64,000 nucleotides of DNA from Candidatus Bathyarchaeia archaeon (GCA_049513715.1 JBEKVV010000004.1:177452-241451); one strand, 5' to 3'; shown: positions 7,068 to 64,000, counted from the stretch's first letter. Notes: generated by a model from the letters alone, not told the origin. A program made the numbers and translations.

Positions 7068-7172
7068 TCAACCCACAGAATCTATACTAGCATTGAGAAT
7101 ATCAATTGATGACGCGTTGAAGCATCAAAGTAAGTATTGATATAAGCACCCTCCAAAGCACGCTCGGATGAC

Positions 7173-39929: not shown

Positions 39930-39940
39930 CCCTACACCCG

Positions 39941-40082
39941 GGTCAAGAGTTCGGATCCTCCCGGACCCGCCACATCACCCGTCATTTCTGCCGGCAAGTT
40001 GGGTTCAGCTCTCCTCCCCCGCACCACAAATTGGACGCCGCACCGACTTGAGACGCGGTTCGAAATCCCTGCCCCATCTCTC
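39941..40082 (+). repeat. Three stacked degenerate tRNA-3'-end-like sequences
   Basis: GTTCGGATCCTCCCGGACCCGCCA; CCGGCAAGTTGGGTTCAGCTCTCCTCCCCCGCACCA; GGTTCGAAATCCCTGCCCCATCTCT. Confidence 0.65.
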
Positions 40083-40453
40083 TCAATATTCCCCTAGAAT
40101 TGGTGGAACTTTCTTCCTAAGCACGCTATGAGTTTCGGATCGAGTTTGCTGTTTCATATCCCATGATTCTACCCATTTCGCGGAATATGTCCCCAGCTTA
40201 GATCGAAAAGTATGAGACCTTAACGTGTGCCCAGCTCTTGCTTGATTACTTAGGAAACATCATTCGAACAGTTTTATCTTTGCGGGACCCTTGTCTCAAG
40301 CTGAGTCGATAGATGATGGGCATGTTAGCTTTCACGCTCCTAGGGGCAGTGATCGCAGAAGTGCTTGCAAGATATTTGATCTGGCGCGGCCGGTCAGAAA
40401 CTTAGTTCATGAGAGAGAGTCGTTTTCCGATTTTCCAAATGGAGATGGGACGA

Positions 40454-41416
40454 ATGAAGAGGATAGCCGTGGTTACAACTGGTGGAGATGCGCCTGGCAT
40501 GAATGCTGCTATCAGAGGCGTTGTCCGTATTGCGTGTTCAAAGAAGTTTCAAGTTGTGGGTTTCAGGAGAGGGTGGGAAGGCTTGATTACAAATACGTTT
40601 ACCCAGTTGACGCCTCGATCCGTAGGCGGCATTCTACAGTTAGGTGGAACAATTCTGCATACATCAAGATGCCAGGAGTTCGAAAAGAGAGAAGGAATCA
40701 GGAAAGCTGCGGAAACTCTCGCATTGAATCATATTGACGGACTTGTGATCATTGGCGGTAACGGCTCTTTCAAGGGCGCTCTTGACCTTAGCGCATACAC
40801 GGATACAATGATGGTTGGAATTCCTGCGTCAATCGACAACGATGTCTTTGGAACAGATGAAACCATAGGTTTTGACACGGCTGCAAACACAGCAGTCGCC
40901 GAAATCGATAAGATCCGAGACACGGCAGTTTCCCATGAGAGAGTTTTCATGATTGAAGTGATGGGGCGAGAAAGAGGTTTTCTCGCGTTGGAGATCGGCC
41001 TCACCGTTGGCGCGGAGATAATTCTAGTTCCAGAAGTGAAATATCAAAACGAGAACCTCTTCGAGACCGTAAGAGAAAACATGGCCAAAGGAAAGAAGTC
41101 AGGCCTGATCGTGGCGGCTGAAGGAATAGGAGACACTCGTCTTCTTGCAGGGCAGATCCAGCGAAACACAAAGGCAGAGGTCAGATTGAGCATCATAGGC
41201 TACGCTCAAAGAGGCGGCAATCCCACGGCGAGGAGCAGGCTCTTGGCGAGCTTGTTCGCAGACAAAGCGATCCAGCTATTGTCACAGAAAGACGGTGGCA
41301 GAGTAGTCGGATTGCAAGATGGCGAGATTGGAAGTGTGGAGCTTCAGAAATCATGTAATACGAAGAAGGTTTTGGATCCAAATCTACTTAGACTGGCTAA
41401 TTTACTTGCAACATGA
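40454..41416 (+). CDS. pfkA: ATP-dependent 6-phosphofructokinase (bacterial PfkA type)
   Basis: TGGDAPGMN, GGTILHTSR, GGNGS, PASIDND, EVMGR. Confidence 0.92.
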   Translation: MKRIAVVTTGGDAPGMNAAIRGVVRIACSKKFQVVGFRRGWEGLITNTFTQLTPRSVGGILQLGGTILHTSRCQEFEKREGIRKAAETLALNHIDGLVIIGGNGSFKGALDLSAYTDTMMVGIPASIDNDVFGTDETIGFDTAANTAVAEIDKIRDTAVSHERVFMIEVMGRERGFLALEIGLTVGAEIILVPEVKYQNENLFETVRENMAKGKKSGLIVAAEGIGDTRLLAGQIQRNTKAEVRLSIIGYAQRGGNPTARSRLLASLFADKAIQLLSQKDGGRVVGLQDGEIGSVELQKSCNTKKVLDPNLLRLANLLAT

Positions 41417-41527
41417 AAACACAACCAACGCCTTCGCGTAGGGTCTTGATACGATAGCGAAGCTATGTCAGACTGAGATAATGATATAGAGAAGACCTCG
41501 GTTCAATGGAGAAGGAAGTATTATTTC

Positions 41528-42295: not shown

Positions 42296-42336
42296 AGATT
42301 GGAAGGCTTCAAGCATGGACATAATGAAGTGACGAT

Positions 42337-43266
42337 ATGAGAGTCAAGCTGGTCCGAAGCCCCAAGAATCCCATCATTGAACCAAGATCCGAGGTAGCAT
42401 GGGAAATCATGGCCACCTTCAATCCCGGAGCTGCAAAAAACGGTGAGGTTATTCACATACTGTATAGGGCGGTCAACGAACACAACATTTCGTCCCTTGG
42501 CCATGCAACAACGAAAGACGGCGAAACGATCGTTGACCGATCTCTGGAACCTGCCCTCGCCCCGGTTGACACTTGGGAAGAACTTGGCTGTGAAGACCCG
42601 CGCATAACAGCCTTCGATGGAGGATTCTACGTTTTCTATACGGCGTATTCGCGACGAGGCCCTCGAATTGCCTTGGTCTCGACAAATGACTTTAGGAGAT
42701 ACGAACGCTACGGATTGGTAGGTCCGAACTACGACGACAAGGACGCCGCCCTCTTTCCTCAGCTCATCCGCGGGAAATTCGCCGTTGTACACAGAATAGA
42801 ACCAAACATCGAATTGGCTTTCTATGATAGCATCAAGCAGATGGAGAAAGTTTCGCAAAATCCATACTCGAAGAACTACCTCAAACGCATCGAAGCAGAC
42901 ACTATCATGAAACCAAAGTGGAAGTGGGAAGAGAAGAAGGTTGGAATTGGCCCCCCGCCGATCCGAACCAACGCTGGATGGATAGTCATCTATCACGGCG
43001 TGGATTCTAACACTGTATATCGTGCAGGGGCAGCCCTCCTTGATCTTGAAAACCCATTCCGAGTGATCGCCCGAACTCCGGAACCCATCCTAGAACCGGA
43101 AGAAGAATTCGAAAGGGTCGGAGTGGTACCTAATGTTGTTTTCCCGGAAGGTGCAGTCGTGGTAAAGGATGACCTCAAGGTCTTCTACGGCGGAGCAGAC
43201 AGAATCTGCTGTGTCGCGAGTGTCCCAATGAAATTGCTGATAGAAGCCTTAGAAAGCTACAGCTAG
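42337..43266 (+). CDS. GH130 glycoside phosphorylase/hydrolase
   Basis: FNPGA, LYRA, GCEDPRIT, KDAALFP, YHGV, NVVFP, YGGAD. Confidence 0.9.
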   Translation: MRVKLVRSPKNPIIEPRSEVAWEIMATFNPGAAKNGEVIHILYRAVNEHNISSLGHATTKDGETIVDRSLEPALAPVDTWEELGCEDPRITAFDGGFYVFYTAYSRRGPRIALVSTNDFRRYERYGLVGPNYDDKDAALFPQLIRGKFAVVHRIEPNIELAFYDSIKQMEKVSQNPYSKNYLKRIEADTIMKPKWKWEEKKVGIGPPPIRTNAGWIVIYHGVDSNTVYRAGAALLDLENPFRVIARTPEPILEPEEEFERVGVVPNVVFPEGAVVVKDDLKVFYGGADRICCVASVPMKLLIEALESYS

Positions 43267-43283
43267 AATCCGTCCTATCAAAG

Positions 43284-44066
43284 CTGGTAAATTCCATATC
43301 GCATAGGAAAATCATCATCTTCGATCTTGACGGTACTCTGACAAAGAGCAAGTCAGACCTTGATCATGAAATGGCTTCGCTGATTTGCGAACTGCTCCGG
43401 CTAAGATACGTTGCAGTGACCTCAGGCTGTTCTTTTCAACAGTTTGAAAGCCAATTCCTGAGTGGACTGCCAGGGAGCAGCAACCTACGCAACTTGCTCA
43501 TGTTTCCGACCTGCTCGGCCAGTGGTTACTATTTTGACAGAAAACGGCGTCGTTTCTCTCAAGCTTACACTAATCTCCTGTCCGCACAGGACATCAAGAA
43601 AATACTCAGATCATTCCAAAGAGTCTTCGCGGAAACCGACTATGTTCACCCAGCAAAGACATACGGACCAGTTTTCGAGAACCGGGGGAGTCAGCTCACA
43701 TTCTCCGCCCTAGGCCAGAAGGCTCCGCTGCGTTTCAAACGTAAATGGGATCCCAATCAGCAGAAGCGTCTGAAGATCAGAAGGCTCCTGAGAACGCGGC
43801 TGCCCGACTTCGAGATATCTATTGGCGGAACCACCTCCATCGACGTCACGAGAAAAGGCGTTGACAAGACATTATGCGTAAAGAAGCTGAAAGAACATCT
43901 CGGTGTGGAACGGAAAGACATGTTGTTTGTCGGGGATGCTCTGTTCAGAGGTGGGAACGACTACATCATGAAGAGCACGGGTATTAGGTGCATATCAGTC
44001 TCGGGCCCGAAGGAAACGAAGGAACTGATAAGAAGGATAATTCAGAACGTCAAAGTCGTACCTTGA
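43284..44066 (+). CDS. HAD-IIB phosphomannomutase (eukaryotic PMM-like); start upstream of the first ATG
   Basis: In-frame KIIIFDLDGTLT upstream of ATG 43371; ENRGSQ, GGTTSIDV, FVGD..GGND. Confidence 0.85.
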   Translation: MVNSISHRKIIIFDLDGTLTKSKSDLDHEMASLICELLRLRYVAVTSGCSFQQFESQFLSGLPGSSNLRNLLMFPTCSASGYYFDRKRRRFSQAYTNLLSAQDIKKILRSFQRVFAETDYVHPAKTYGPVFENRGSQLTFSALGQKAPLRFKRKWDPNQQKRLKIRRLLRTRLPDFEISIGGTTSIDVTRKGVDKTLCVKKLKEHLGVERKDMLFVGDALFRGGNDYIMKSTGIRCISVSGPKETKELIRRIIQNVKVVP

Positions 44067-52658: not shown

Positions 52659-53186
52659 GTGGGTTACGTGAAAACGGTCGGTATTGATGAAAGGACGGTC
52701 GAAGACCGGAGGGAAATGGAGGAGATACTTCTCGCTGCCAAGGTAGGTCGTTTGGGCATATGCTGGAATGGTCAACCGTTGATTATCCCGGTGAATTTCG
52801 TCTACGAAAACGGTGCTATCTACTTCCATGGTTCAGATCTGGGGTTGAAAACTGAATTCCTACGAAGAAATCCTGATGTCTGCTTTGAGGTAGACGAATT
52901 CTGGGGCACGGTCCCCGCATCGGTACCTTGCGAATACGATACTGCGTACCGAAGCGTTGTTGTTTCTGGTACGGCTCAGGTTCTGTCAAGTCCGGAGGAG
53001 AAGACGGTTCCACTTCGACTCATTGTCGCGAAATATGCCGGGCAGGATGCGGCCAAGGGTTTGACACCTCTCATGGTTGAAGAGTATCGTTCCTCGCGTG
53101 GCCGGGAAACAGCGGTCGTAAAAATCAGAGTCAAGGCAATGACCGGCAAACGCTCAACCGAGAAACCCACAAGAAAAGTTGAATGA
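52659..53186 (+). CDS. Pyridoxamine 5'-phosphate oxidase-like (NimA-type) flavin-binding protein
   Basis: IYFHGS..G.K..NPDVCFEVD..YRSVV..MTGK. Confidence 0.85.
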   Translation: MGYVKTVGIDERTVEDRREMEEILLAAKVGRLGICWNGQPLIIPVNFVYENGAIYFHGSDLGLKTEFLRRNPDVCFEVDEFWGTVPASVPCEYDTAYRSVVVSGTAQVLSSPEEKTVPLRLIVAKYAGQDAAKGLTPLMVEEYRSSRGRETAVVKIRVKAMTGKRSTEKPTRKVE

Positions 53187-53242
53187 CACAGATCTACCGT
53201 TAAATTGTGGTATGCTTGCCTCCGATTTCATGATAAGGAGCC

Positions 53243-53290
53243 TATATGTACCGGTAAATTGGGGTTGAAATCCCCTTCTCCATCTCTGAG
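53243..53290 (+). repeat. Repeat B1
   Basis: TATATGTACCGGTAAATTGGGGTTGAAATCCCCTTCTCCATCTCTGAG. Confidence 0.9.
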
Positions 53291-53500
53291 GATTGGAGTC
53301 AGGGTTGTATCGGCTAGATGCCTAGATAATCGAACGAACTTGTGTGTAGTCTTCTTCTCGAAAGGAACGTTCTTGACTCAATCCTGTGTCGGGGCCTGAC
53401 AGGTTCGCGTAATAGCTGCCCTGCCGCTCTATGATCCGTTGGCTGTGAAGTTGCGAGCAAAGTTGGTATTCGTCGTTCACCAAGATTGTAACGGTATCCA

Positions 53501-54106
53501 GTGTCATCCTCATTCTCTTCAAGGCTCGAGAGCAGGTTGGGTATTCACCAGCGACCACTCAAAGAACAATTAGCTGTAGTTATCTACCGAATTCGAACTC
53601 AACGCAACAAGATCGAATCCATGAACCTAATGATGCAGCATCGCGACAAGGAGTTCTTCGACAAATGTGTCGCAGCCCGCTCCGTAGGCGACATGCCACG
53701 CGCCAACCTCTACGCGGAGGAATGCGCTGAGGTCAGGAAGATGGCTAAAATCGCCCTAAACTCCGAACTTGCACTGGAACAGTTGATCTTCAAACTCGAG
53801 ACGGCTGAAATGATGGGCGACATAGCTTACTTGGTCCACCCAATCAAGAGCGTGGTTGCCTCCGTTGGACAGCAAATTCAACAAATGATGCCTGACGTCT
53901 CCTTCGAGCTAAATCAAATCAATGAAAGCCTGGAAGGCATAGTCGTCAACGCTGGTGAGGTGACGGAAAGCATGGCGCCCGCAGGTTTCCAATCGCCTGA
54001 AGCGGATAAGATAATGCAAGAAGCTGACACGCTCGCTGAGCAGAAGATAAAATCCAGATTCCCAGAACTCCACCCCATCCCCACCGCTGAATCCACAGGT
54101 AGCTGA
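53501..54106 (+). CDS. ESCRT-III/Snf7 (CdvB-like) paralogue
   Basis: RDKEFFDKCV..RANLYAEECAEVRKMAK..LALEQ..KLET..EADKIMQEA..FPEL. Confidence 0.85.
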   Translation: MSSSFSSRLESRLGIHQRPLKEQLAVVIYRIRTQRNKIESMNLMMQHRDKEFFDKCVAARSVGDMPRANLYAEECAEVRKMAKIALNSELALEQLIFKLETAEMMGDIAYLVHPIKSVVASVGQQIQQMMPDVSFELNQINESLEGIVVNAGEVTESMAPAGFQSPEADKIMQEADTLAEQKIKSRFPELHPIPTAESTGS

Positions 54107-54154
54107 AAAGAGCCTAGCTTAGCCTAAGCCCTAGGGGACCTACGCGACTCACTC

Positions 54155-54202
54155 TATATGCACCGGTAAATTGGTGCTGAAATCCCCTGCTCCACCGCTG
54201 AG
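54155..54202 (+). repeat. Repeat B2
   Basis: TATATGCACCGGTAAATTGGTGCTGAAATCCCCTGCTCCACCGCTGAG. Confidence 0.9.
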
Positions 54203-54301
54203 CTCAACTGAGATAAGATAGTGGGCGTATTGGATTTGCTTCTTCGTAGAGACTGAATTCAACGGACTTGATTCGGTCTGCAAGGCAGGGATACTGAAAC
54301 A

Positions 54302-54649
54302 ATGCCTAAGGTGCTTTTTGTCTGTACAGCCAATCTTCAACGAAGTCCTACTGCAAAGGACCTCTTTCAAAACTGGAATGGAGTATGGGAAACGGAATCG
54401 GCGGGAACAATGCCCTTGCCGGGACGCAACGATTTGACTCAACAGCTAGTCGACTGGGCGGACTTAATCATAGTTATGGAACCACACCACGCCGAACACA
54501 TTCAAACTCATTTCAAAACCAATCCAGACAAGATCAAAGTACTGAACATACCTGACAGATACTTCCGCAACGAACCTGAACTCGTTCAAGAACTCAAGAA
54601 CAAAGTCACCCCAATTCTCGAAACCTGGAAGCCCAATTCCAAACTCTAG
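54302..54649 (+). CDS. Low-molecular-weight phosphotyrosine phosphatase-like protein
   Basis: VLFVCTANLQRSPTA, ESAG, WADLIIVME, LNIPD. Confidence 0.88.
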   Translation: MPKVLFVCTANLQRSPTAKDLFQNWNGVWETESAGTMPLPGRNDLTQQLVDWADLIIVMEPHHAEHIQTHFKTNPDKIKVLNIPDRYFRNEPELVQELKNKVTPILETWKPNSKL

Positions 54650-54659
54650 AAAGAGGAGG

Positions 54660-54696
54660 AAATTGGGGCCAAAATCCCCTGTTAGATCTCTGAGGA
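54660..54696 (+). repeat. Repeat B3 (5'-truncated)
   Basis: AAATTGGGGCCAAAATCCCCTGTTAGATCTCTGAGGA. Confidence 0.75.
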
Positions 54697-54782
54697 CTGA
54701 CAAAGGGACCTGTGGATCTCATTGTTGGCATCGAAGTGCTACAAGTAAATCCTACGATATTCCGTGATCGAGAGGAGTCCCG

Positions 54783-55226
54783 ATGTCAGAAGCTTACAGG
54801 TCTAGTGTTAGATTGTATTGGATGGCGAAAGAAACAGATGAACCAAACCGGGCGTTTAATGTCGAGTCCGCAAGGCTGTCCGTTCATGAGAACTATCACA
54901 ACTGCCTGAGAATTCTGGCCATTTACAGCAGGACGCATGGAGGTTCAGTTGTGGCGCATGGAATATGGGGTGGCCGCAAAATACTGGGGCTTGGATTCCA
55001 AGGTAAGAACGTGACAATTGGAGTTGTGCAAGGAAGCCGTATCGAGCGAGGAATAACACACGAGATTAGGAATCCCTATGATCTAAGAAGGTACCTGGAA
55101 AACACGGTAGGTTTTTCAGTAGCGAATCTCAACGAACGGACCTTCGAAAAGGCCTTGGAGCAATTGAAGAAGATCGAATCTGAATGGAACATCGAGATTT
55201 CTCCTGAGGAAACCAAGAAATGGTAG
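54783..55226 (+). CDS. Hypothetical protein
   Basis: 147 aa ORF between repeats B3 and B4; no recognisable motif. Confidence 0.55.
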   Translation: MSEAYRSSVRLYWMAKETDEPNRAFNVESARLSVHENYHNCLRILAIYSRTHGGSVVAHGIWGGRKILGLGFQGKNVTIGVVQGSRIERGITHEIRNPYDLRRYLENTVGFSVANLNERTFEKALEQLKKIESEWNIEISPEETKKW

Positions 55227-55295
55227 CCCACAACTCCCGCAGCGACTTTTCCAGCAAAGACCTCAAGCACTGACATTCCTGACTACCGGCTGATC

Positions 55296-55336
55296 TGTAC
55301 CGGTAAATTGGGGTCAGAATCTCCTCCCCCGCACCA
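55296..55336 (+). repeat. Repeat B4 (ends in CCCCCGCACCA)
   Basis: TGTACCGGTAAATTGGGGTCAGAATCTCCTCCCCCGCACCA. Confidence 0.85.
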
Positions 55337-55611
55337 AAATGAAAAATGAAAATAATACTGGCCTGTGAGACCTGCAGCCCAAAGAGAGGACACCATATTC
55401 ATTGGTGCAAACGCTTTTCGTAGTTTCCATTGTTTTCCGGAGGTCACTAAGAACACTGGGCTATGCTTGGTTTTCATTTCGATGGACGTGTGATTCTCTT
55501 TCGTGGAGTTGCACAGAAAGCCCTCTATATTGAGAACATTTCCCCTAATCAAGAGCTGCAATGCCGCGTCTGTGTTCTTGTAGGCAGGGCACATTGGAAG
55601 GTTGACGGAAA

Positions 55612-57495
55612 TTGGTGTACGGGTATAATGGCAAGATAGCCCGAGTGAACCTTCAAGCGCGGACCATGAAGGTTGAGAACCCGGACGATGCAGTGTATAA
55701 ACAATATCTTGGCGGAAGAGGGCTAGGCGCGTATTATTTGTTCCGCGAGCTTACCCCGAAAATTGATCCGTTGGGACATGAGAATATCATTATTGTGGCT
55801 CCGAGCGTTATCACGGGAATTCCCATCGCTGGAATGTCTAGGTGTAGTATAGTCTCGAAATCGCCGTTGACAGGTACCTACGGTGAGACGGAAGCTGGCG
55901 GATTTTTCGGCGCAGAACTGAAAGCCGCAGGATTCGACGCGCTGATCATCGAAGGTCGGTCAGAGAAACCTGTTTACTTGTTCGTGCATGATGGAGAGAT
56001 AGACTTCAACGACGCCTCAACCATGTGGGGCAAGACGACTAAAGATGCTCAAACCGAAATACGCGAGCAAGTGAAAGACCGACACGCTCGCATCGACCTG
56101 ATTGGCCCGGCAGGCGAGAACCTTGTTCGATACGCATGCGTACTCAACGAGCTAAAATTCGCGCATGGCCGCGGTGGTCTCGGCGCCGTGATGGGTTCAA
56201 AGAAACTAAAAGCAATCGCAGCCCGTGGAACTAAGAAACCTGAACTAGAGGATCCAGAGGCGATCCAACAAATTGCGAGGTGGATGGCGTCTCATTGGAA
56301 AGAGTTTCCTGGAGCTCTTACACGAAGTTCCCTTGGCACAGCCGATGCCGTGTTGCCCTTGAACGCCTTGGGCATACTGCCCACGAGAAACTTCCAAGGC
56401 GGGTTCTTCGAGCAGGCCTCAGCCGTGTCGGGACAGAAGATGGCCGAGACCATATTGACTCGAACCGATGGTTGTTACGCGTGCCAGATCAGGTGCAAGA
56501 GAGAAGTCACCGCGACCGAACCCTACGAAACCGAGCCTGAATATGGTGGCCCAGAATATGAAACAATAGTGGCTTTTGGTCCACTCTGCGACGTAGGCGA
56601 TTTGGGCGCGGTGTCGAAAGCGAATGAACTCTGCAATAGTTACGGGTTGGACACGATAAGTACTGGGAGCTCAATAGCGTTCGCTATAGAATGTTACGAG
56701 AACGGACTGTTAACCAAGACGGACACTGACGGTTTAGAACTGAACTGGGGAAACGCAGACGCAATCCTTCAACTAATCGACATGATAGCACATCGCCGGG
56801 GCATAGGAATCCTGCTCGGGGAAGGAGTCAAACGAGCCTCTGAAAAAATCGGGAAGGGCTCGAATCGATTCGCGCTTCACACGAAGGGAAAGGAGCTAGC
56901 TATGCATGACCCACGCGGCAAAACTGGAGTCGGCATAGGATACGCTGTGTCCCCCTCAGGGGCAGATCATATGCAGGCAGCACATGATCCCGTTTTTGGT
57001 AAGCCAACTAAATTCATGGAAATGGCAGGGATAACCGCGACTGTCGACACGCGTGACTTGGGCCCTGACAAGGTTAGAGCGTTCTTGTACGCACACCTGT
57101 GGTGGGGATTACTCGACTGTCTCGGGGCATGTAAGTTCGTATTCATCCCACACAATGCTGGCGTTCTAGACACGCAGCAACTCGTTGACATGGTCAATGC
57201 CTCAACGGGTTGGCAGATGAGCCTATGGAGCCTGATGAAGGCCAGTGAACGAGCCTTGAACCTGGCACGCGCATTCAATGTGCGGGAAGGATTCACCGCA
57301 TCCGACGACACATTACCCCCAAGGCTATTTGAGGAGATTCAGTTCGGCCCCAGCAAAGGCGCTAAGATCGACCGAGAACAATTCCAAAACGCGTTGCATC
57401 AATACTATGAGATGATGGGTTGGGATCGAATCACTGGTGCACCTACGGCCACAAAACTTCTTGAACTCGGACTTGGCTGGACCATCAATTCTTGA
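55612..57495 (+). CDS. aor: Tungsten-containing aldehyde:ferredoxin oxidoreductase family
   Basis: YLGGRG, KSPLTG, IGPAGEN, GRGGLGAVMGSK, CYACQIRC, PEYET, DTIS. Confidence 0.93.
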   Translation: MVYGYNGKIARVNLQARTMKVENPDDAVYKQYLGGRGLGAYYLFRELTPKIDPLGHENIIIVAPSVITGIPIAGMSRCSIVSKSPLTGTYGETEAGGFFGAELKAAGFDALIIEGRSEKPVYLFVHDGEIDFNDASTMWGKTTKDAQTEIREQVKDRHARIDLIGPAGENLVRYACVLNELKFAHGRGGLGAVMGSKKLKAIAARGTKKPELEDPEAIQQIARWMASHWKEFPGALTRSSLGTADAVLPLNALGILPTRNFQGGFFEQASAVSGQKMAETILTRTDGCYACQIRCKREVTATEPYETEPEYGGPEYETIVAFGPLCDVGDLGAVSKANELCNSYGLDTISTGSSIAFAIECYENGLLTKTDTDGLELNWGNADAILQLIDMIAHRRGIGILLGEGVKRASEKIGKGSNRFALHTKGKELAMHDPRGKTGVGIGYAVSPSGADHMQAAHDPVFGKPTKFMEMAGITATVDTRDLGPDKVRAFLYAHLWWGLLDCLGACKFVFIPHNAGVLDTQQLVDMVNASTGWQMSLWSLMKASERALNLARAFNVREGFTASDDTLPPRLFEEIQFGPSKGAKIDREQFQNALHQYYEMMGWDRITGAPTATKLLELGLGWTINS

Positions 57496-57631
57496 TGCAT
57501 AAAATTGCGTTGATGTAATGTATCGGCGAATGCCCCCTTAAATTATAGCATACTTCAAGAAACAACGACGATTCAAGCGGATTCAGTCTAGCCATGTTTC
57601 GTTCAGTTCTTCGCGATTTCCATCAATGGCT

Positions 57632-57678
57632 TATATGTACTGGTAAATTGGCGCTGAAATCCCCTGCCCCATCTCTGA
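57632..57678 (+). repeat. Repeat B5
   Basis: TATATGTACTGGTAAATTGGCGCTGAAATCCCCTGCCCCATCTCTGA. Confidence 0.9.
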
Positions 57679-57679
57679 T

Positions 57680-58840
57680 TCAACTCTCTGCTTCTTCCGG
57701 TTTAATCTTTAGAACAAGAAGTGCACTAGCGAATAGAGCGGATGAACCCACTAAGAAAATGGACACGGGGCTGAAGGTGTTCCAGACAAACCCCAAGACC
57801 AGAGGACCAATAATGAAACCTAGGTCTTCAAAGGACCCGTACATTCCTATTGCTGTGCCGTGTGATTTGTCGAATGTGATTTCTGGAATTACGGCCAGGA
57901 GAAGTGAGAGCGCAGCAAGCCCCAAGGACACGAGCACCGATACCAGGAATAACTGGTCCTGAGTTCTTGCTACCAGATAGAAAAGAAACATCCCAGAAGA
58001 TGATAGAAGTCCGACCCCGGCTATTCTTCGTCTCCCAAACTTGTCCGACAACCACCCGAACAACGGCATCGCCGCTAACTGCGCCGCATAGATAATACTG
58101 AGAAGTAGGCCAACCTGAACGGTTGACATGTTCATTTGCTCTAACACGTAAAGCGGCAGGAAGGATTTCACCAACGACAGCGCGATGAACCCGAAAACTG
58201 CCGAGAGAAACAGAAAGCCTGCCGAGCGCATATGAAAGGTCGACCTAACACGAGGCGCATCTTGCACAGTCGCACGCGGCTTTGACTTTGGGAGAGTGAA
58301 CATTATGATACAAGCTAACACTAGAGCCAACGCAGACGACGCATAGAATGAACAGCTGAACGAGCAAGATGCAGCTAGATATGCGCCAACCAACGGGCCT
58401 ATTATGCGCCCCAATGTCGAAAATGACCACCACAGACTTGCGAACAATCCGACCGATTTCAGCGGTGACTCATCGGACACATAGGCTCTGGTTGTGGGCC
58501 CCAAAGCTACACCGACTACGCCCCAAGAGAACTGCACGAAGATGAAATAGGGAACAAGTGACCTGACTGTATACAACGGGAAGATGATGCTCATCCCTAG
58601 AACGGAGAGAAACATGAGGAGCCGTCGATCAACTCGGTCAGAGATTCTACCCCAAATCCATTCGAACAGGAACATGCCGAGCGCGGCTGATGTGGCGAGA
58701 AAACTCCAATCGACAACCCCTATTCCCAGCGATTGAACATAAAGAGGTAATATTGGCCCGTTAACAGAAGCACTGGTCAAGACGCTCCACAAAAGAAGGA
58801 TCAGATAGATTGGCAACATTCGACAAAGGTTGCGGTTCAA
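57680..58840 (-). CDS. MFS transporter
   Basis: WGRISDRVDRR and GWLSDKFGRRR motif A copies; about 12 TM helices. Confidence 0.9.
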   Translation of the reverse strand: MNRNLCRMLPIYLILLLWSVLTSASVNGPILPLYVQSLGIGVVDWSFLATSAALGMFLFEWIWGRISDRVDRRLLMFLSVLGMSIIFPLYTVRSLVPYFIFVQFSWGVVGVALGPTTRAYVSDESPLKSVGLFASLWWSFSTLGRIIGPLVGAYLAASCSFSCSFYASSALALVLACIIMFTLPKSKPRATVQDAPRVRSTFHMRSAGFLFLSAVFGFIALSLVKSFLPLYVLEQMNMSTVQVGLLLSIIYAAQLAAMPLFGWLSDKFGRRRIAGVGLLSSSGMFLFYLVARTQDQLFLVSVLVSLGLAALSLLLAVIPEITFDKSHGTAIGMYGSFEDLGFIIGPLVLGFVWNTFSPVSIFLVGSSALFASALLVLKIKPEEAES

Positions 58841-59137
58841 GTGCTTTCATGTCCTGGATCGGATCTGTGAGCCCTAGGATCCCATGCTTGGTTCGGAGAC
58901 ATGATTCGATGTGTGTCGGGGGACGGTCAGATCTAAGTGCCTTCCTTGGTTCGGAGCATTCGTATCTTCAATAGCCCAAGCTAATCTCGACTGCTCTCTG
59001 ACTTTGTCAGCTTCATCTTGCCTAAATCGGCGGCAAGAGTTTAAGTGAATCATAAATGCTCCCAAAATATGATGTAGAGAATAAAGAGTAGCTGTGATTC
59101 CTTAGGCATTCGATATGAGCAAAGTCCACACTCTGCT

Positions 59138-59184
59138 TATATGTACCGGTAAATTGGGGCTGAAATCCCCTACCCCATCTCTGA
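59138..59184 (+). repeat. Repeat B6
   Basis: TATATGTACCGGTAAATTGGGGCTGAAATCCCCTACCCCATCTCTGA. Confidence 0.9.
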
Positions 59185-59293
59185 AACCGACTATACATTG
59201 ATAGGTGTACTTCTCGATTCTGTTGGCCTTTGTGACATAAAAATAAACACTGCCTTTTTAGAGTCAGCTTCGACAAAACTATGTGAGGGGTTA

Positions 59294-59881
59294 GTGACGC
59301 CACCCGCTGCTGTCAAAACGTTGCGAGAGCTGATCTACTGGCAGTATGCGAAGATCATCTCCAACTCTGCTGGCATGGGGAAGAAGCAGTGGGGTTTCGT
59401 TATGGACCGGTTCGAGAAGCTCAGAGACGAAAATATTTTCTGGAATAGCATAAGAGAGTATATCAAGGAGAGAGAAACGTCCGAAAAATGTTCTTTTTGC
59501 GGTTCCTCCGGCCAACTCTCGCTTGAGCATCTCTTTCCCAGAACTCTTAACGGACCTGACGATGAAAAGAACGTTACTTGGATTTGTCGTCGATGTAATT
59601 CCTCAAAAGGCGCAAGAAGGCCATATGAGTATTGGACACTGCGTGATGGCCTGAAAGCTGCGAAGTACGACATGCCACGACTTGTGGAGGGGAAGTACCT
59701 CAAGTTCGTGTTTGAGACACTGTCAGGAACAGATTACCTGGATCTTTCCATGACCGAGATCGAAAAGCGAGTGTGTCCAACCTGCGACCTTACCCCGTTA
59801 TGCAGAAAGGAACGGACTGTCAACAAGCTGTCGCCTCTTTGCATAGACGGAATAACCACGCTTCAGCTTATGAAGGCGTAA
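59294..59881 (+). CDS. HNH endonuclease
   Basis: CSFCG..EHLFP..GPD..NV..CRRCNSSKG; probable GTG start at 59294. Confidence 0.85.
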   Translation: MTPPAAVKTLRELIYWQYAKIISNSAGMGKKQWGFVMDRFEKLRDENIFWNSIREYIKERETSEKCSFCGSSGQLSLEHLFPRTLNGPDDEKNVTWICRRCNSSKGARRPYEYWTLRDGLKAAKYDMPRLVEGKYLKFVFETLSGTDYLDLSMTEIEKRVCPTCDLTPLCRKERTVNKLSPLCIDGITTLQLMKA

Positions 59882-60225
59882 TGTAATGGTGAGCCAAGCG
59901 TCGGCTCGGAAGTCAATCCTAGGTCTTATTGTTCTCACACTCGTTCTGAACCGCTTTGCCTATTCAGCTCTGAAAGCGTTTGCTTGAAACTTGCTGAGCT
60001 ATGAAACATGTCGTGGTTACGATCCCAAAACGTACGCCTGTATTAACCCGACAATCTCACGCAGCATAATGAGGGAGCTTATTGAAGAGTAGCATCAGTT
60101 ATCCAAACACAACTACACACAAGGGGAGGGACGGTCGAAACGAATTTCGCCTAAGCCTCAGTTAACCGATATGGCTGATTACTATCCTTCTACCAACGAA
60201 TATGTTTAGTTTTGAAGCTGCATCT

Positions 60226-61599
60226 CTATTTCTGTGAAACCAAATCAAAGAAGCGGATGTAGGCTTCGATGCCACGATAGTAGGTGGGAAGGTGCTGTCT
60301 CTCGTTAGGGGCGTGGATATTGTCGTCAGGCAGGCCGAATCCCAACAGAACTGAGTCAACGCCAAGTCTGGTCTTGACCATGTTCACCACGGGAACGCTG
60401 CCTCCTGCCAGTTGAAACAGCGGTCTAACTCCAAAAGTGGCTTGTAGGGCTGACGCAGCTGCTCGCATAGCTGGCGTATTGCGATCAACAAGAACAGCCG
60501 GGGCACTCGTGAGATTCTTGACCTCCCAGGTCACGGTTTGAGGCGCATTCTTGCGCAAATACTCCTTCAACTGATTCTCCACAGCCCCATTGTCCTGTTC
60601 GGGAACAAGCCGCATGGAAATCTTTGCCATGGCTTTCGCGGGCAAGACGGTCTTCGATCCCTCGCCAGTGAAACCAGAGAGGAAACCGTTTACTTCGAGA
60701 GTAGGTCGCCCCCCAATCCGCTCCACAGTCGTGAATCCTTTCTCTCCGTACAGCAGCTTCGTCCCGGTCATCTCTTGCCAAGCTTCGTCGGAAATTGGAA
60801 TGCGCGCCAATTCGACGCGTTCTTCTTTTGAGAGAACTCGGACTTTATCGTAAAAGCCCGGCAAAGTGACATGCCCATTTGCGTCATGCATTCCTGCAAT
60901 TAATTCACAGAGCACCTGCGCCGGGTTGTGGACTGCTCCTCCAAAACCCCCTGAGTGCAGGTCACTCTTCGCCCCGTAAACCCAGACCTCGAAGTATCCC
61001 AGACCACGAAGCCCGTATACCAGAGAGGGCACGTCAGGTTTTAGGATATGTGAATCGCAGTTCAGGACAAAATCGCATTTCAGTTTGCTCTTGTACTTTT
61101 CCACAAATGGTTCGAGATTTCGTGAACCAATCTCCTCTTCACCCTCGAAGAACATCTTCACGTTGACCGGCAAGCCGCCTGATTTCAGCCATGCCTCCAA
61201 GGCCTTTAGAACTGCATGACCTTGCCCCTTCATATCAGAAGCCCCACGAGCGTAAATGTTGTCTCCCCGCACCGAAGGTTCAAACGGAGGTGAAGTCCAC
61301 TCGTTCAGTGGATCAACTGGCTGAACATCATAATGGCCGTAGACTAAAACGGTGGGTTTGCCTGGAGCGTTAAGCCACTCACCGTAGACAACTGGATGCC
61401 CAGCAGTGGCAAGAACCTCAACATTCTTGAAACCTATACCGTACAGCTGATTTGCAAGCCACTCAGCGCAACGTTGAACGTCTTGCTTATGTTCAGAAAG
61501 TGTAGAGATACTCGGAATTGAGAGGTACTCTCTGAATTCCGTTAGATAACGATCGTGATCACGCTTTGAGGATTCGAGAACTTGCTGTACGGAGGTCAT
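60226..61599 (-). CDS. M20 dipeptidase (Dug1/CNDP2-like)
   Basis: YGHYDVQP, ARGASDMKG, EGEEEIGS, DLHSG, HAPNE. Confidence 0.92.
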   Translation of the reverse strand: MTSVQQVLESSKRDHDRYLTEFREYLSIPSISTLSEHKQDVQRCAEWLANQLYGIGFKNVEVLATAGHPVVYGEWLNAPGKPTVLVYGHYDVQPVDPLNEWTSPPFEPSVRGDNIYARGASDMKGQGHAVLKALEAWLKSGGLPVNVKMFFEGEEEIGSRNLEPFVEKYKSKLKCDFVLNCDSHILKPDVPSLVYGLRGLGYFEVWVYGAKSDLHSGGFGGAVHNPAQVLCELIAGMHDANGHVTLPGFYDKVRVLSKEERVELARIPISDEAWQEMTGTKLLYGEKGFTTVERIGGRPTLEVNGFLSGFTGEGSKTVLPAKAMAKISMRLVPEQDNGAVENQLKEYLRKNAPQTVTWEVKNLTSAPAVLVDRNTPAMRAAASALQATFGVRPLFQLAGGSVPVVNMVKTRLGVDSVLLGFGLPDDNIHAPNERQHLPTYYRGIEAYIRFFDLVSQK

Positions 61600-61822
61600 G
61601 GATGCTCATTTGGGTCGGATAGATTAAGTGATATTTCATCTTTGCATTCTAGCTTGAGGCCAAGCAATCATTCCGCGTCAGTGAATTTGCTGGTCACCAG
61701 GGTTCCGACATGAGACCCTCTGGTGGCGCATCAGCATACCCACACTCCATCGCCAGAGAATGATTGTGTGAAGTTACGGTTCTACTTTGTACCGTCGTAC
61801 GCATACTAGTTCGATGCGGGTT

Positions 61823-62323: not shown

Positions 62324-62400
62324 CGTTCAAGGAATCTGTCTCACTCGAACTAGTAGCTCTTACGACAGATATTCACGTTTGAATGTTTATTGATTGGGGC

Positions 62401-62494
62401 GGTGTGTGTGGTATCAGTGGTGCGCACACCACACAAAACCGACTGAACTTACGGTTCAATTCTGGACGCCCGCACCAAGAGAATCACACACACC
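62401..62494. repeat. CGCACCA-core repeats A6 (minus strand) and A7 (plus strand)
   Basis: GGTGTGTGTGGTATCAGTGGTGCGCACACCACAC; GGTTCAATTCTGGACGCCCGCACCAAGAGAATCACACACACC. Confidence 0.7.
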
Positions 62495-62817: not shown

Positions 62818-62918
62818 TGATTGAAACCAAACCTCAATCCAAACTCAACCCGCCACCTGCCTGTTTATTGCTTTCGCTAATTAGGCGGCCAAGTTTCAGT
62901 TTTCTGGGGGGGTACTAA

Positions 62919-62944
62919 TGGTGCGGGCGACTGAATTTGAACTC
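62919..62944 (-). repeat. CGCACCA-core repeat A8 (tRNA-3'-like)
   Basis: Reverse complement GAGTTCAAATTCAGTCGCCCGCACCA followed by TTAGTACCC. Confidence 0.7.
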
Positions 62945-63233
62945 AACATTGTCCGATGCCGACCTAAACATTTTCTGTAAGATATGCCATATGGAGAGCG
63001 TGAGTCTGTTGTCTGACGAGAAAAGCTCCGCTTCCGACAATCATCCGGTGTTCATCCAGCCAAGCACAGGAAATACGGGGGTTCAAATCCGGCCCCCTAC
63101 ACTTTCTGATGAACCTAGTACACTCATTTCCACTGGATAACTGCGAGCCTTGACCAAGGCAGCGGTAAGGCCAGCCTAGTCGGATTTTCTGCGACGATTC
63201 AAGTCCGCCGTAATGTCTCCTTCTAGGCGGGAA

Positions 63234-64000
63234 TCAGGTGTAGTCCAGAATGCTTGTCTTTTTGCCTGCTGTTCGTACTCCGGTTTGACTGATGCGCTTG
63301 AGAATTGAGTGCATCTTCTGTTCTTTGCGAATGCTGCTCCAATAGTATGCTTCGTCAACCGTATCTTCAGCCATCAAGACTGTGACCTTGCCAATCCTGG
63401 TTCTTCCAGTTCTCCCCCTTCGCTGAATGGTTCGTATTTCGGATGGCACTGCTTCATAGAAGATGACGTGGTCCACGTCCGGAACGTGTAGGCCTTCTTC
63501 GCCTATGCTTGTGGTTACGAGGATGTTGAACTTGCCAGACTTGAAGTCCTCCAAGGTTTGCACTTGCTCTTTCTGTGATAGGCCTCGACTGGAATCTTCG
63601 CTTGTTGCGTGGCCGACGAAGCGAACCGGACGCGAGCCCTCCTGTTCCAGTTTCGTTACGATCAGCTCTACGGTGTCTCGATATTGCGTGAACACTATGA
63701 TGCGACTGGTTTGGTTCATCCTCAATTGTTCGATGATCAAGTTGGAGAGGAGGTTCAATTTCGGATGTGACGTGTGAATAGTATCGGTTAACTGGATGGC
63801 TGTTTGAACTCGGGGGTCTTTCAGTAGGCTTTTGATGGTTCGTTTCGGGTTTTCTGACATGCGGGTGAAATACTGCTTCAGATTCTGGATGTCTTGGGTT
63901 TCGAGGAGTTCTATGCCGTGGAGTAGGGAGATGGCTTGCGCTTGGAGTGTTAGGGCGGCGAAGATGTAACCCGAACGTCTCTTCCGAAGCCTTATGATTA
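63234..64000 (-). CDS. Hef/FANCM/MPH1-like SF2 helicase, C-terminal part (starts outside window)
   Basis: Frame open to the window edge; HGIELLETQ, HPKL, FTQYRDT, TSIGEEGL, QRRGRTGR. Confidence 0.9.
   Translation of the reverse strand, partial: IIRLRKRRSGYIFAALTLQAQAISLLHGIELLETQDIQNLKQYFTRMSENPKRTIKSLLKDPRVQTAIQLTDTIHTSHPKLNLLSNLIIEQLRMNQTSRIIVFTQYRDTVELIVTKLEQEGSRPVRFVGHATSEDSSRGLSQKEQVQTLEDFKSGKFNILVTTSIGEEGLHVPDVDHVIFYEAVPSEIRTIQRRGRTGRTRIGKVTVLMAEDTVDEAYYWSSIRKEQKMHSILKRISQTGVRTAGKKTSILDYT

What the first reader, a model, noticed from the sequence alone, without database searches (positions are those of the whole stretch)
53243..59184. Cassette-like array: a ~47-bp tRNA-3'-like direct repeat separates unrelated single genes
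Seen: six same-strand copies of TATATGTACCGGTAAATTGGGGCTGAAATCCCCT(N)CCCCATCTCTGA at 53243, 54155, 54660, 55296, 57632 and 59138. Exactly one gene lies between each pair: CdvB-like, LMW-PTP, hypothetical, AOR, MFS. A NimA-like gene and an HNH gene sit just outside the ends. Most copies contain a TACCGGTA palindrome and a GGGG-N7-CCCC hairpin resembling a tRNA T-arm; B4 ends in CCCCCGCACCA like an acceptor end. Related copies occur at 39.99-40.08 kb. Known: many integrases use tRNA 3' ends as attB and leave a 3' fragment behind. Inference: a gene-capture array built by serial single-gene integration at a tRNA-derived site, analogous to an integron but without attC. No integrase is in the window.
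Basis: partly seen in the sequence, partly recalled or inferred. Interest (0 to 1): 0.85.

Follow-up and report, generated by a model that had tools for sequence, protein, structure and literature searches.

The report
Integrase docking-site repeats joining single-gene modules
The six repeats are copies of a docking site used by mobile elements that insert at leucine and serine tRNA genes of this peat archaeon, and here they join five unrelated single genes into a stack that looks like an integron but is built from different, mostly familiar parts.

Summary
Six same-strand copies of a ~50-bp repeat sit at the stated places with one real gene between each pair.

The repeat has three parts: a conserved 17-bp arm (TATATGTACCGGTAAAT), a T-arm-like core, and a tail. 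The genome holds 49 copies, mostly in co-oriented arrays near contig ends.

In relatives, the same arm plus a true tRNA tail forms the right junction (attR) of elements inserted at class II tRNA genes. The left junction is the tRNA tail followed by the inverted arm, then a XerA-like tyrosine integrase. One intact integrase of this family lies on another contig, at the head of a 17-copy array.

The cassette genes lie scattered in congeners. One joint elsewhere in the genome is a recombinant that switches inside the repeat.

It is not an integron: there is no IntI signature, no attC fold and no gene-orientation bias. I saw no excision, and the array is identical in 24 of 24 metagenome runs listed.

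Most copies carry a conserved non-tRNA tail that I cannot explain.

This scan noted the same kind of array before, in this genome and in other Bathyarchaeia. My literature searches found no paper on it.

The parts
53240..53289 (+). Repeat B1. Arm TATATGTACCGGTAAAT, core GGGGTTGAAATCCCC, type-A tail TTCTCCATCTCTGA.
53501..54106 (+). Module 1: a CdvB/ESCRT-III-like gene. It is a fourth, divergent paralog, 38-48% identical to the three copies at C1:731-736 kb.
54152..54201 (+). Repeat B2, type-A tail. The palindrome and core stem each carry one change (CACCGGTA, GGTG).
54302..54649 (+). Module 2: a low-molecular-weight phosphotyrosine phosphatase-like gene.
   Evidence: The homolog in G017:C5 (81% aa) has a decayed repeat upstream.
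54644..54693 (+). Repeat B3, truncated. The 5' arm is missing. Only AAATTGGGGCCAAAATCCCC plus an A-like tail remains, starting at the stop codon of the phosphatase gene.
54783..55226 (+). Module 3: a 147-aa ORF with no Pfam or NCBIfam family. Homologs are 55-73% identical at unrelated places in 6 congener loci.
55289..55338 (+). Repeat B4, type B. The arm and core are followed by a true tRNA 3' end, CCCCCGCACCA.
55612..57495 (+). Module 4: aldehyde ferredoxin oxidoreductase, one of 10 paralogs in the genome.
57629..57678 (+). Repeat B5, type-A tail (TACTGGTA, GGCG).
57680..58840 (-). Module 5: an MFS transporter, on the strand opposite to the repeats.
59135..59184 (+). Repeat B6, type-A tail. 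It is the copy closest to the genome-wide consensus.
52659..53186 (+). Left neighbour: a PNPOx/NimA-like gene. No homolog was found beside the relatives' copies of other modules.
59198..59881 (+). Right neighbour: an HNH endonuclease-domain gene that starts 14 nt after B6. It is the only copy in the genome.
60210..61663 (-). M20 peptidase gene module. It is 93% identical to G013:C6, and the likeness stops at the ends of the gene.
39937..40082 (+). Cluster of decayed tRNA-tail and repeat fragments, including a degenerate type-B copy. It lies right after a core gene whose likeness to 7 of 7 relatives' loci stops at 39901-39914. This is the probable left edge of the variable island.
61692..61747 (+). 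Copy of a second boundary motif (GGTTC..CGCACCA-like..CCCACAC). The same motif sits inside the long terminal inverted repeats of the tRNA-targeting elements.
   Evidence: read by eye
62396..62493 (+). Pair of the same second motif in inverted orientation.
   Evidence: read by eye
62900..63106 (+). A ~200-nt repeat (second motif plus another tRNA-tail fragment). It has 8 copies in the genome and flanks the X1/X2 module in G014 as direct repeats.

Best explanation
Each repeat is a copy of the recombination site of a family of integrative elements. These elements insert at the 3' end of class II tRNA genes. ARAGORN calls one target tRNA-Ser(GCU); I read the other by hand as tRNA-Leu. The elements use a XerA-like tyrosine recombinase.

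The site has three parts. The first is a 17-bp arm that is the inverted copy of the element's other end and is presumably bound by the integrase. The second is a T-arm-like core shared with the tRNA, where strands are exchanged. The third is a tail.

The window holds a stack of five modules, detached from its tRNA. Each module has one gene and no integrase, and the modules are joined by these sites. I infer that the modules were added one by one by recombination between a site on an incoming circle and a resident site. The integrase would act in trans, for example the intact one at C5:218588-219544.

Shown: the site, its tie to tRNA tails, its identity with the right junction of integrase-bearing elements, the arrays, the scattered homologs, and one recombinant joint.

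Inferred: that single genes moved as circles, which enzyme did it, and where the strands cross.
For: 1. Copy number and layout. The genome holds 49 copies at E<=0.01, in co-oriented arrays: C4 6 of 6 on +, C5 17 of 17 on -, C7 8 of 8 on +, C10 4 of 4 on +. The conserved block is about 50 nt with sharp edges on both sides.

2. True tRNA tails. 7 copies end in CCCCCGCACCA and 2 in CCCACCCCCGGCGC(CA). These are the exact tails of real tRNA genes of this genome.

3. The integrase in this genome. On C5, a tRNA with the first tail is followed at once by TTTTACCGGTACACATAATAG, the inverted copy of the repeat's arm. A 182-aa ORF and a 319-aa integrase follow. The integrase scores 96.5 bits on PF00589 and 181.6 bits on NCBIfam XerA_Arch. 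Its R, HxxR and Y motifs align to XerA structure 5hxy.

4. The integrase in relatives. Homologs (51-66% identical; the 51% match is partial) lie about 600 nt after such a tail plus (A/T)TTTAC(C/T)(G/A)GTA in 6 of 7 loci. The seventh locus has too little upstream DNA.

5. Complete junction pairs. These are G002:C2 (~19.7 kb), G003:C2 (~28.7 kb), G016 (2.2 kb, two glycosyltransferase-like ORFs read by eye and not scanned against a family library, no integrase) and own C3:421967-427373 (5.4 kb, P-type ATPase, no integrase).

6. Joined form. Eight metagenome contigs (5 distinct) carry arm, core, tail and inverted arm together, the predicted joined form.

7. Scattered homologs. Homologs of the CdvB-like, phosphatase and 147-aa module genes lie on different contigs or far apart in congeners. 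None of 19 relatives' loci holds two of them.

8. Recombinant joint. C6:4217-5000 matches C5:175801-175026 at 97.6%. C6:4964-5092 matches C5:182645-182517 at 93%. The switch lies inside the repeat.

9. Cargo. 0 of 116 ORFs in the other arrays hit an integrase or transposase family.
Against: - No sign of movement. 24 of 24 listed runs (2017-2025) hold all sampled words of the array. Contigs of 4 runs are colinear with it at flat depth. Every 'joint' lies at a repeat and is explained by other copies. Contigs can hide rare variants.
- The integrase family was found in only 6 of 23 genomes of the genus. Repeats were listed in at least 16 of 22 congeners.
- 32 of 49 copies end in TGCCCCATCTCTGA. 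This is not tRNA sequence and is not the element's other arm. I cannot derive it from the model.
- Only two inverted arms follow a tRNA tail in this genome, against about 45 right arms.
- The M20 module shows gene-sized mosaicism with no such repeat at its edges.
- Only 2 of 19 relatives' homologs have a detectable repeat within 700 nt.
- The switch point in the C6 joint lies left of the loop. The identity pattern of the G016 and G002 junctions starts right of the loop. These do not point to one fixed crossover.
Confidence: 0.55

Rival explanations
1. Graveyard. The repeats are inert scars. Full-size integrase-bearing elements piled up at tRNA genes. Deletions and rearrangements then whittled them down and moved the stack away from its tRNA. 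The one-gene units never moved as such.
For: - The array is fixed and identical across 24 of 24 runs.
- Several window copies are decayed: B3 lacks the arm, and B2 and B5 have changed palindromes.
- Decayed fragments lie at 39.94-40.08 kb.
- The integrase is missing from 17 of 23 genomes of the genus.
- Units range from 350 bp to 7.5 kb with 1 to 8 genes in either orientation.
- Tandem arrays with decayed members are well known (PMC5704250 and PMC3146451, passages read).
Against: - 32 copies keep the same non-tRNA tail and sharp edges while everything between them differs. The same tail is kept in other species. Random deletion would not spare 50 bp each time.
- Internal joints of decayed tandem elements should keep the inverted left arm. 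Such joints are seen in metagenome contigs but hardly at all in this genome.
Confidence: 0.28
2. The 50-bp unit is itself a small non-autonomous mobile repeat (MITE- or REP-like). It has sprinkled into intergenic spacers of a pre-existing variable region.
For: It is short, has sharp edges, is always intergenic and has many copies.
Against: - Copies are co-oriented in arrays and nearly absent from the rest of 2.8 Mb.
- The genes they separate are not neighbours in any of the 19 relatives' loci examined, so no 'empty' ancestral cluster is seen.
- 9 copies carry true tRNA tails and match junctions of integrase elements.
- The flanks show no conserved or duplicated target (consensus only; target duplications were not tested copy by copy).
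Confidence: 0.07
3. A regulatory or RNA element: a promoter with a TATA-like box, a terminator, or a small tRNA-like RNA attached to each gene.
For: TTATATG resembles an archaeal TATA box (recalled knowledge). The core looks like a T-arm.
Against: - Gene orientation relative to the repeat is random. Downstream: 22 same, 19 opposite, 8 none. Upstream: 21 same, 25 opposite, 3 none. Distances to co-oriented starts run from 3 to 367 nt.
- There are no compensatory changes in the GGGG/CCCC stem; pair 3 is broken in 6 of 40 copies.
- Folding z-scores are -1.3 to +1.5.
- No Rfam family matches.
Confidence: 0.04
4. A true integron or a cluster of attC sites lacking an integrase (CALIN).
For: In the window there is one gene per unit, co-oriented sites, and 4 of 5 genes on the same strand. 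Integrons are reported in Archaea (10.1101/2022.02.06.479319, passages read).
Against: - The integron-integrase models score far below cut-off: TIGR02249 42.5 against 265, NF011946 24.2 against 435.
- There is no attC-like single-strand hairpin.
- There is no orientation bias genome-wide.
- The site is a tRNA-tail att site.
Confidence: 0.01

Closest known systems
Tandem ssrA genomic islands of Dehalococcoides (McMurdie et al. 2011, PMC3146451; passages read)
   Same: - Many islands are stacked behind one small-RNA gene and parted by direct repeats of its 3' end.
- A conserved non-gene motif lies just upstream of each repeat.
- The inferred crossover is in the T-loop.
- 15 islands lack the integration module and were read as cis-mobilizable.
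   Different: - Those use a serine recombinase and the tmRNA gene, hold multi-gene islands and stay attached to ssrA.
- Here the system is archaeal and uses a XerA-like tyrosine recombinase at class II tRNA genes.
- Units go down to one gene.
- Arrays are detached from any tRNA.
- The dominant site variant has a non-tRNA tail.
CIMEs and site-specific accretion in streptococcal ICE/IME families (review PMC5704250; passages read)
   Same: Units bounded by att sites, without integrase or transfer genes, are stacked at the end of a tRNA gene. They are thought to be movable by an integrase supplied by a neighbour.
   Different: - CIMEs are defined as decayed ICEs or IMEs, are few per locus and keep attL and attR.
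- Here there are dozens of units, each with a single site of one type.
- No decay series is seen and there is no conjugation context.
Tycheposon-built islands of Prochlorococcus (Hackl et al., bioRxiv 10.1101/2020.12.28.424599; passages read)
   Same: tRNA-targeting integrases, cargo of niche-adaptive cellular genes, islands seeded at tRNA genes, partial tRNA copies between neighbouring elements, and remnants scattered through the islands.
   Different: - That preprint reports on average 1-2 elements per genome, found through their integrases. It shows experimental excision and tandem junctions.
- Here there is one integrase for 49 sites and no observed movement.
- I did not test whether the integrases are related.
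Integrons, including archaeal ones (Ghaly et al., 10.1101/2022.02.06.479319; passages read)
   Same: One site per cassette, co-oriented sites, single promoter-to-stop genes in the window, and accessory cargo.
   Different: - No IntI-specific signature and no folded attC.
- No attI next to the integrase in the integron sense.
- No gene-orientation bias.
- The site is double-strand tRNA-tail DNA.
Integrated elements at archaeal tRNA genes: cryptic integrated elements of Thaumarchaeota (Krupovic et al. 2019, PMC6563490; passages read) and 'gene capture' (recalled, not read)
   Same: Tyrosine-recombinase elements at tRNA genes, tandem arrays, and cargo of cellular genes.
   Different: Those elements are defined by their integrase and have a median size of 17 kb. 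One-gene integrase-less units with a dedicated site are not described in the passages I read.

Membership tests
Integron | Integron integrase (IntI) with the extra domain around patch III | tested here: not met
   The only nearby integrase scores 42.5 bits on TIGR02249 (cut-off 265) and 24.2 on NF011946 (cut-off 435). Its best model is XerA_Arch, 181.6 bits (cut-off 220).
Integron | attC: an imperfect palindrome that folds as a single strand | tested here: not met
   Five 61-nt folds (four window copies; B6 folded on both strands) have z-scores between -1.34 and +1.54 against shuffles. The only stem is a 4-bp one.
Integron | Cassettes mostly co-oriented with the sites | tested here: not met
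   4 of 5 in the window. Genome-wide the downstream gene is on the same strand in 22 cases and on the opposite strand in 19.
tRNA-targeting integrative element (tyrosine recombinase) | Integrase gene next to a tRNA gene whose 3' end is repeated at the far end of the element | tested here: met
   Met for the family: own C5, 6 of 7 integrase loci, and junction pairs in G002, G003, G016 and own C3. Not met inside the window, which has no tRNA gene and no integrase.
tRNA-targeting integrative element (tyrosine recombinase) | The repeat is identical to the host tRNA's own 3' end | tested here: inconclusive
   True for 9 of 49 copies (types B and C). 32 of 49 have the type-A tail, which matches no tRNA tail found by regex in this genome. 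8 are unclassified.
CIME / accretion array | Units bounded by att sites and lacking integration and transfer genes | tested here: met
   The 5 window modules have no such genes. 0 of 116 ORFs in the other arrays have them.
CIME / accretion array | Units are decayed descendants of autonomous elements and move in cis with a neighbour | not testable with these tools
   No decay series was seen. No movement was seen in contigs of 4 runs.
Tycheposon | Integrase belongs to the tycheposon recombinase families | not tested
   No comparison with tycheposon integrases was run.
MITE / REP-type repeat | Dispersed copies in ordinary intergenic DNA, inserted into existing gene neighbourhoods | tested here: not met
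   Copies are clustered and co-oriented. The separated genes are not neighbours in 19 relatives' loci. Target duplications were not tested copy by copy.

The most novel reading that the evidence does not exclude
Bathyarchaeia of this genus run a true gene-cassette system. A XerA-like integrase is anchored at a class II tRNA gene. It captures, stacks and reshuffles circles of one gene with its own promoter through a dedicated 50-bp double-strand site (arm, T-arm-like core and the conserved tail ..CCCATCTCTGA). That site is distinct from the tRNA att site, much as attC is distinct from attI. This would be an independent, archaeal invention of the integron principle. Some cassettes may be copied from the host's own genes: a kinase/regulator module in the C5 array is 91-92% identical to a copy at C5:98-101 kb.
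Probability: 0.25. Interest if true: 0.8.

Novelty: new variant of a known kind. Interest (0 to 1): 0.55.

Why it matters
Bathyarchaeia are abundant, uncultured archaea of peat and sediments, and how they acquire accessory genes is largely unknown. This finding gives a concrete, testable system: one integrase family, a defined 50-bp site and its tRNA targets. It also gives dozens of natural substrates carrying transporters, redox enzymes, phosphatases and extra copies of cell-division and transcription factors.

If single genes really move through this site, it would be a second, independent route to integron-like gene stockpiling, and a possible tool for site-specific insertion in archaea. 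If they do not move, the arrays are still a marker of variable islands that break assemblies and mislead tRNA finders.

Searches for tycheposon, for Bathyarchaeia with integrase and tRNA, for integrons in Archaea, for cis-mobilizable accretion, and for Bathyarchaeota gene cassettes turned up no paper describing this in Bathyarchaeia.

Tried and rejected
- RNA families. Rfam at gathering score found nothing in the window or in 6 array loci.
- tRNA in the window. ARAGORN found no tRNA.
- Expression. No RNA holder was listed by the look-up of sequencing runs.
- Excision. Contigs of runs X1, X5, X9 and X10 gave only ambiguous joints at repeats and loose ends that match other copies. This is not evidence on excision either way.
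- Free viral forms. The 16-mer hit 13 IMG/VR contigs, and 0 of 13 continue as the repeat.
- Integrase behind joined sites. tblastn of the integrase and the 182-aa ORF found nothing within 3 kb of the 8 metagenome joints.
- Repeats beside relatives' homologs. A sensitive nhmmer scan found a repeat at 2 of 19 loci.
- Isotype of the tail-B tRNAs by tool. ARAGORN default found 0 genes in 8 of 9 loci. Rfam in E-value mode gave no tRNA call. A brute-force removal of putative introns followed by ARAGORN gave many conflicting calls and is not decisive (one search failed on a script error). 'tRNA-Leu' is therefore my hand reading: anticodon loops CUUAAGA, CUUAGGA and CUGAGGC, with discriminator A. Earlier notes of this scan say tRNA-Ser.
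- Split-tRNA half or C/D-box RNA. I considered these and dropped them. The T-loop lacks C56, the acceptor tail of type A cannot pair with a normal 5' end, and there are no boxes.
- HNH gene as the mobilising enzyme. It has a single copy in the genome.
- Long palindrome as an attC-like fold. z = -1.67 for one type-B copy and -0.16 to -2.31 for three type-A copies. This is weak.
- A Pfam call failed on a wrong frame. I repeated it with proper ORFs.
Full report
**Observation.** The window holds six direct, same-strand copies of a 50-nt repeat at 53240, 54152, 54644, 55289, 57629 and 59135. A 27-nt core pattern finds 4 of them at up to 3 mismatches, and 0 of 100 shuffles gave any hit.

One substantial ORF lies between each pair:
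- a CdvB-like gene
- an LMW phosphatase
- a 147-aa ORF without family
- an aldehyde ferredoxin oxidoreductase
- an MFS transporter, on the opposite strand

A PNPOx/NimA-like gene and an HNH gene flank the array. The exact TACCGGTA palindrome and the exact GGGG-N7-CCCC are each present in only 3 of 6 copies. B3 lacks the whole 5' arm. ARAGORN and Rfam call no tRNA in the window.

**Genome-wide picture.** The window is C4:177452-241451 of a 2.79-Mb, 11-contig genome. Earlier notes of this scan call it a peat Bathyarchaeia.

A profile of the six copies finds 47 hits. A profile of 40 good copies finds 49 at E<=0.01. They form co-oriented arrays, mostly near contig ends: C4 6 of 6 on +, C5 17 of 17 on -, C7 8 of 8 on +, C10 4 of 4 on +, C6 4 on - and 1 on +.

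The conserved block is about 50 nt with sharp edges. It consists of:
- an arm, GCTTATATGTACCGGTAAAT
- a core, TGGGG-N7-CCCC, with a variable loop
- a tail

Tails fall into three types. Type A is TGCCCCATCTCTGA (32 copies). Type B is TCCCCCGCACCA (7 copies). Type C is ACCCCCGGCGC(CA) (2 copies). Eight copies are decayed or unclassified.

Runs of type A tend to end in a type-B or type-C copy. The window reads A A A B A A. C5 reads A A A C, then A ... B, then seven A and a B. This is a description, not a statistical test.

Units between neighbouring copies are 350 bp to 7.5 kb and hold 1 to 8 ORFs.

**What the tails are.** Tails B and C are letter-for-letter the 3' ends of real, intron-rich tRNA genes of this genome. 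ARAGORN calls tail C's gene tRNA-Ser(GCU) in this genome (C2:77367-77448) and in G002.

The tail-B genes are class II tRNAs. I read them by hand as tRNA-Leu, from anticodon loops CUUAAGA, CUUAGGA and CUGAGGC and discriminator A. No tool confirmed this. ARAGORN's intron mode labelled one of them Ser(gga), and earlier notes of this scan speak of tRNA-Ser.

The type-A tail matches no tRNA tail that my regex scans found.

**Link to an integrase.** Of 5 PF00589 matches in the genome, the strongest is at C5:218588-219544. It lies at the head of the 17-copy C5 array.

Read on the minus strand, the order is as follows:
- a multi-intron tRNA ending ..GGGGTTCAAATCCCCTCCCCCGCACCA
- immediately after it, TTTTACCGGTACACATAATAG, the inverted copy of the repeat's arm
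- a 182-aa ORF
- the 319-aa integrase

The integrase is XerA-like: NCBIfam XerA_Arch 181.6 bits (below its cut-off of 220), and PDB XerA 5hxy at E 2e-16 with the R, HxxR and Y motifs aligned.

Homologs 63-66% identical occur in 4 congeners and a partial one (51%) in a fifth, so 6 of 23 genomes including this one. In 6 of 7 loci the integrase lies about 600 nt after a tail-B or tail-C tRNA end followed by (A/T)TTTAC(C/T)(G/A)GTA. The seventh locus lacks upstream DNA.

**Complete elements.** Four junction pairs show that the repeat with a tRNA tail is the right junction (attR) of this element family.
- G002:C2: the tRNA-Ser tail plus inverted arm is matched 19.7 kb on by arm, core and tail C.
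- G003:C2: the same layout, 28.7 kb apart.
- G016: a 2.2-kb element with two glycosyltransferase-like ORFs (read by eye, not scanned against a family library) and no integrase. It sits between a tail-B tRNA plus TTTTACCGGTAC and an arm-core-tail copy whose tail carries that genome's own variant, TTCCCC.
- Own genome: C3:421967 (tail C plus ATTTACCGGT) and C3:427339-427373 (arm, core, tail C) bracket 5.4 kb. The cargo is a peroxiredoxin-like protein, a DsbD-like protein and a P-type ATPase, with no integrase.

The predicted joined form (arm, core, tail, inverted arm) exists in 8 metagenome contigs, 5 of them distinct. It is followed by cargo genes, not integrases.

**Are the window's units independent modules?**

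Evidence for:
- A 12.9-kb query around the array finds the module genes in congeners at unrelated contigs or distant positions. None of 19 fetched loci holds two of them.
- G004:C25 carries the CdvB-like gene inside its own 5-repeat array with other neighbours. That contig also carries modules that in this window lie at 40.1-44.1 kb.
- The phosphatase homolog of G017 (81% aa) keeps a decayed repeat upstream, and its likeness ends at the stop codon, where B3 begins.
- The window's variable region seems to begin at about 39.92 kb. The likeness of a core gene to 7 of 7 relatives' loci stops at 39901-39914, right before a cluster of decayed tail fragments.
- Elsewhere in the genome, C6:4217-5092 is a chimera: the DNA upstream of repeat C5:175012 (97.6%) joined to the DNA downstream of repeat C5:182602 (93%). 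The switch is inside the repeat, between AAAT and the loop.
- A GDSL-lipase module is shared by arrays on C3 and C7. It shares the arm variant GGTACATT downstream of it, but the loops differ.

Evidence against:
- 24 of 24 listed runs from 2017-2025 hold all sampled words of the array.
- Contigs of four runs are colinear with the array at flat depth, and show no joint that other copies cannot explain.
- The M20 peptidase gene at 60210-61663 is 93% identical to G013, with the likeness confined to the gene and no such repeat at its edges. Gene-sized mosaicism is therefore not tied to this repeat alone.
- Other boundary repeats are present nearby at 61692-61747, 62396-62493 and 62900-63106.

**What it is not.**
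- Not an integron. The integron-integrase models score far below cut-off. Single-strand folds are no better than shuffles.
- Not a promoter, terminator or structured RNA. Genes show no orientation bias relative to the sites: 22 same against 19 opposite downstream, 21 against 25 upstream. The 4-bp stem shows no compensatory change.
- Not a sprinkled MITE-like repeat. This follows from the clustering, the tRNA tails and the lack of any conserved gene neighbourhood.

**Cargo and spread.** 116 ORFs from the other arrays are ordinary accessory genes. They include transporters, redox enzymes, three LMW phosphatases, phosphoesterases, stress proteins, a TFIIB and a TFS paralog, and a kinase/regulator pair. 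None hits an integrase or transposase family.

Repeat hits were listed in at least 16 of 22 congeners and in 0 of 18 genomes of other genera. Copy number differs widely. With up to 3 mismatches, five congeners have 1, 3, 3, 7 and 13 copies.

Across one genome per species, the exact 17-mer occurs in 54 loci:
- 27 are from archaeal records (25 titled Bathyarchaeia or Bathyarchaeota).
- One is labelled Aminicenantes and carries the full repeat.
- The remaining 26 are bacterial and match only the 17-mer. By my arithmetic, chance alone predicts about 69 such hits.

**Reading.** The core claim is that these are att-type sites of a class II-tRNA-targeting, XerA-like integrase family. I hold this at about 0.85. 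That the one-gene units entered as separate circles recombined in trans is inferred, at about 0.5-0.55. The main rival is an inert graveyard of whittled-down elements.

The conserved non-tRNA tail of most copies and the near absence of left arms fit a dedicated cassette site better than decay. I cannot derive that tail, however, and no movement was seen.

**Comparison with known systems.** The closest are the tandem ssrA islands of Dehalococcoides, CIME accretion in streptococci and tycheposon islands. This scan has noted like arrays before in this genome (e1-7819932, e1-7819922) and in other Bathyarchaeia (e1-6521383, e1-6521134, e1-6521058). My literature searches found no paper describing them.

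Noticed in passing
window 40140-41460 and 42323-44064: Two gene modules are 93% and 96% identical to G014:C1. There they are adjacent and flanked on both sides by direct copies of a ~200-nt repeat that equals window 62900-63106. In G004 they lie on the same array contig as the CdvB-like module.
   Followed up: partly
window 60210-61663: The M20 peptidase gene is 93% identical to G013:C6. The likeness is limited to the gene plus 16 and 64 nt, and the neighbours are entirely different.
   Followed up: partly
genome C5:206446-210687, C1:888639-892385, C5:98130-101228: A histidine-kinase and response-regulator module occurs three times. The copy inside the C5 array is about 96% identical to one at the end of C1. 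The copy at C5:98-101 kb, outside any array, is 91-92% identical to the C1 copy. This hints that array cargo can be copied from resident genes.
   Followed up: partly
genome C6:3259-5008: Two repeat copies lie in inverted orientation and bracket 1.7 kb (an HhH-GPD glycosylase-like gene and a 164-aa ORF) that is 97.6% identical to DNA beside C5:175012. This looks like a recombined or inverted segment.
   Followed up: partly
genome C5:~220112-220330 (L004 8116-8330, minus), C1:124547-124746, C9:~7127-7260: Class II tRNA genes with two or three introns at unusual positions are missed by ARAGORN default and by Rfam. ARAGORN's intron mode mislabels them.
   Followed up: partly
window 53501-54106: The CdvB/ESCRT-III-like gene in the array is a fourth, divergent paralog. 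It is 38-48% identical to three copies in the cell-division cluster at C1:731-736 kb. Close relatives (69-85% aa) exist in four congeners.
   Followed up: partly
window 63234-63998 (contig end) and C3:527584-528358: Contig ends share near-identical DNA, here a helicase C-terminal gene at 94.6%. Other contig ends pair up likewise (C10 with C1, C11 with C7, C9 with C11), so the arrays may belong to fewer, larger islands than the assembly shows.
   Followed up: partly
genome C11:6269-8422 (L010): A 717-aa ORF with internal repeats has a weak Pfam hit to the ribosome-inactivating-protein domain (32 bits) next to a repeat copy. A paralog lies at C3:516.9-519.2 kb.
   Followed up: no
genome C1:892200-892345 and C5:206500-206640: Several different tRNA 3'-end fragments lie head to tail just upstream of repeat copies. 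This suggests that att scars of other element families share the same hot spots.
   Followed up: no
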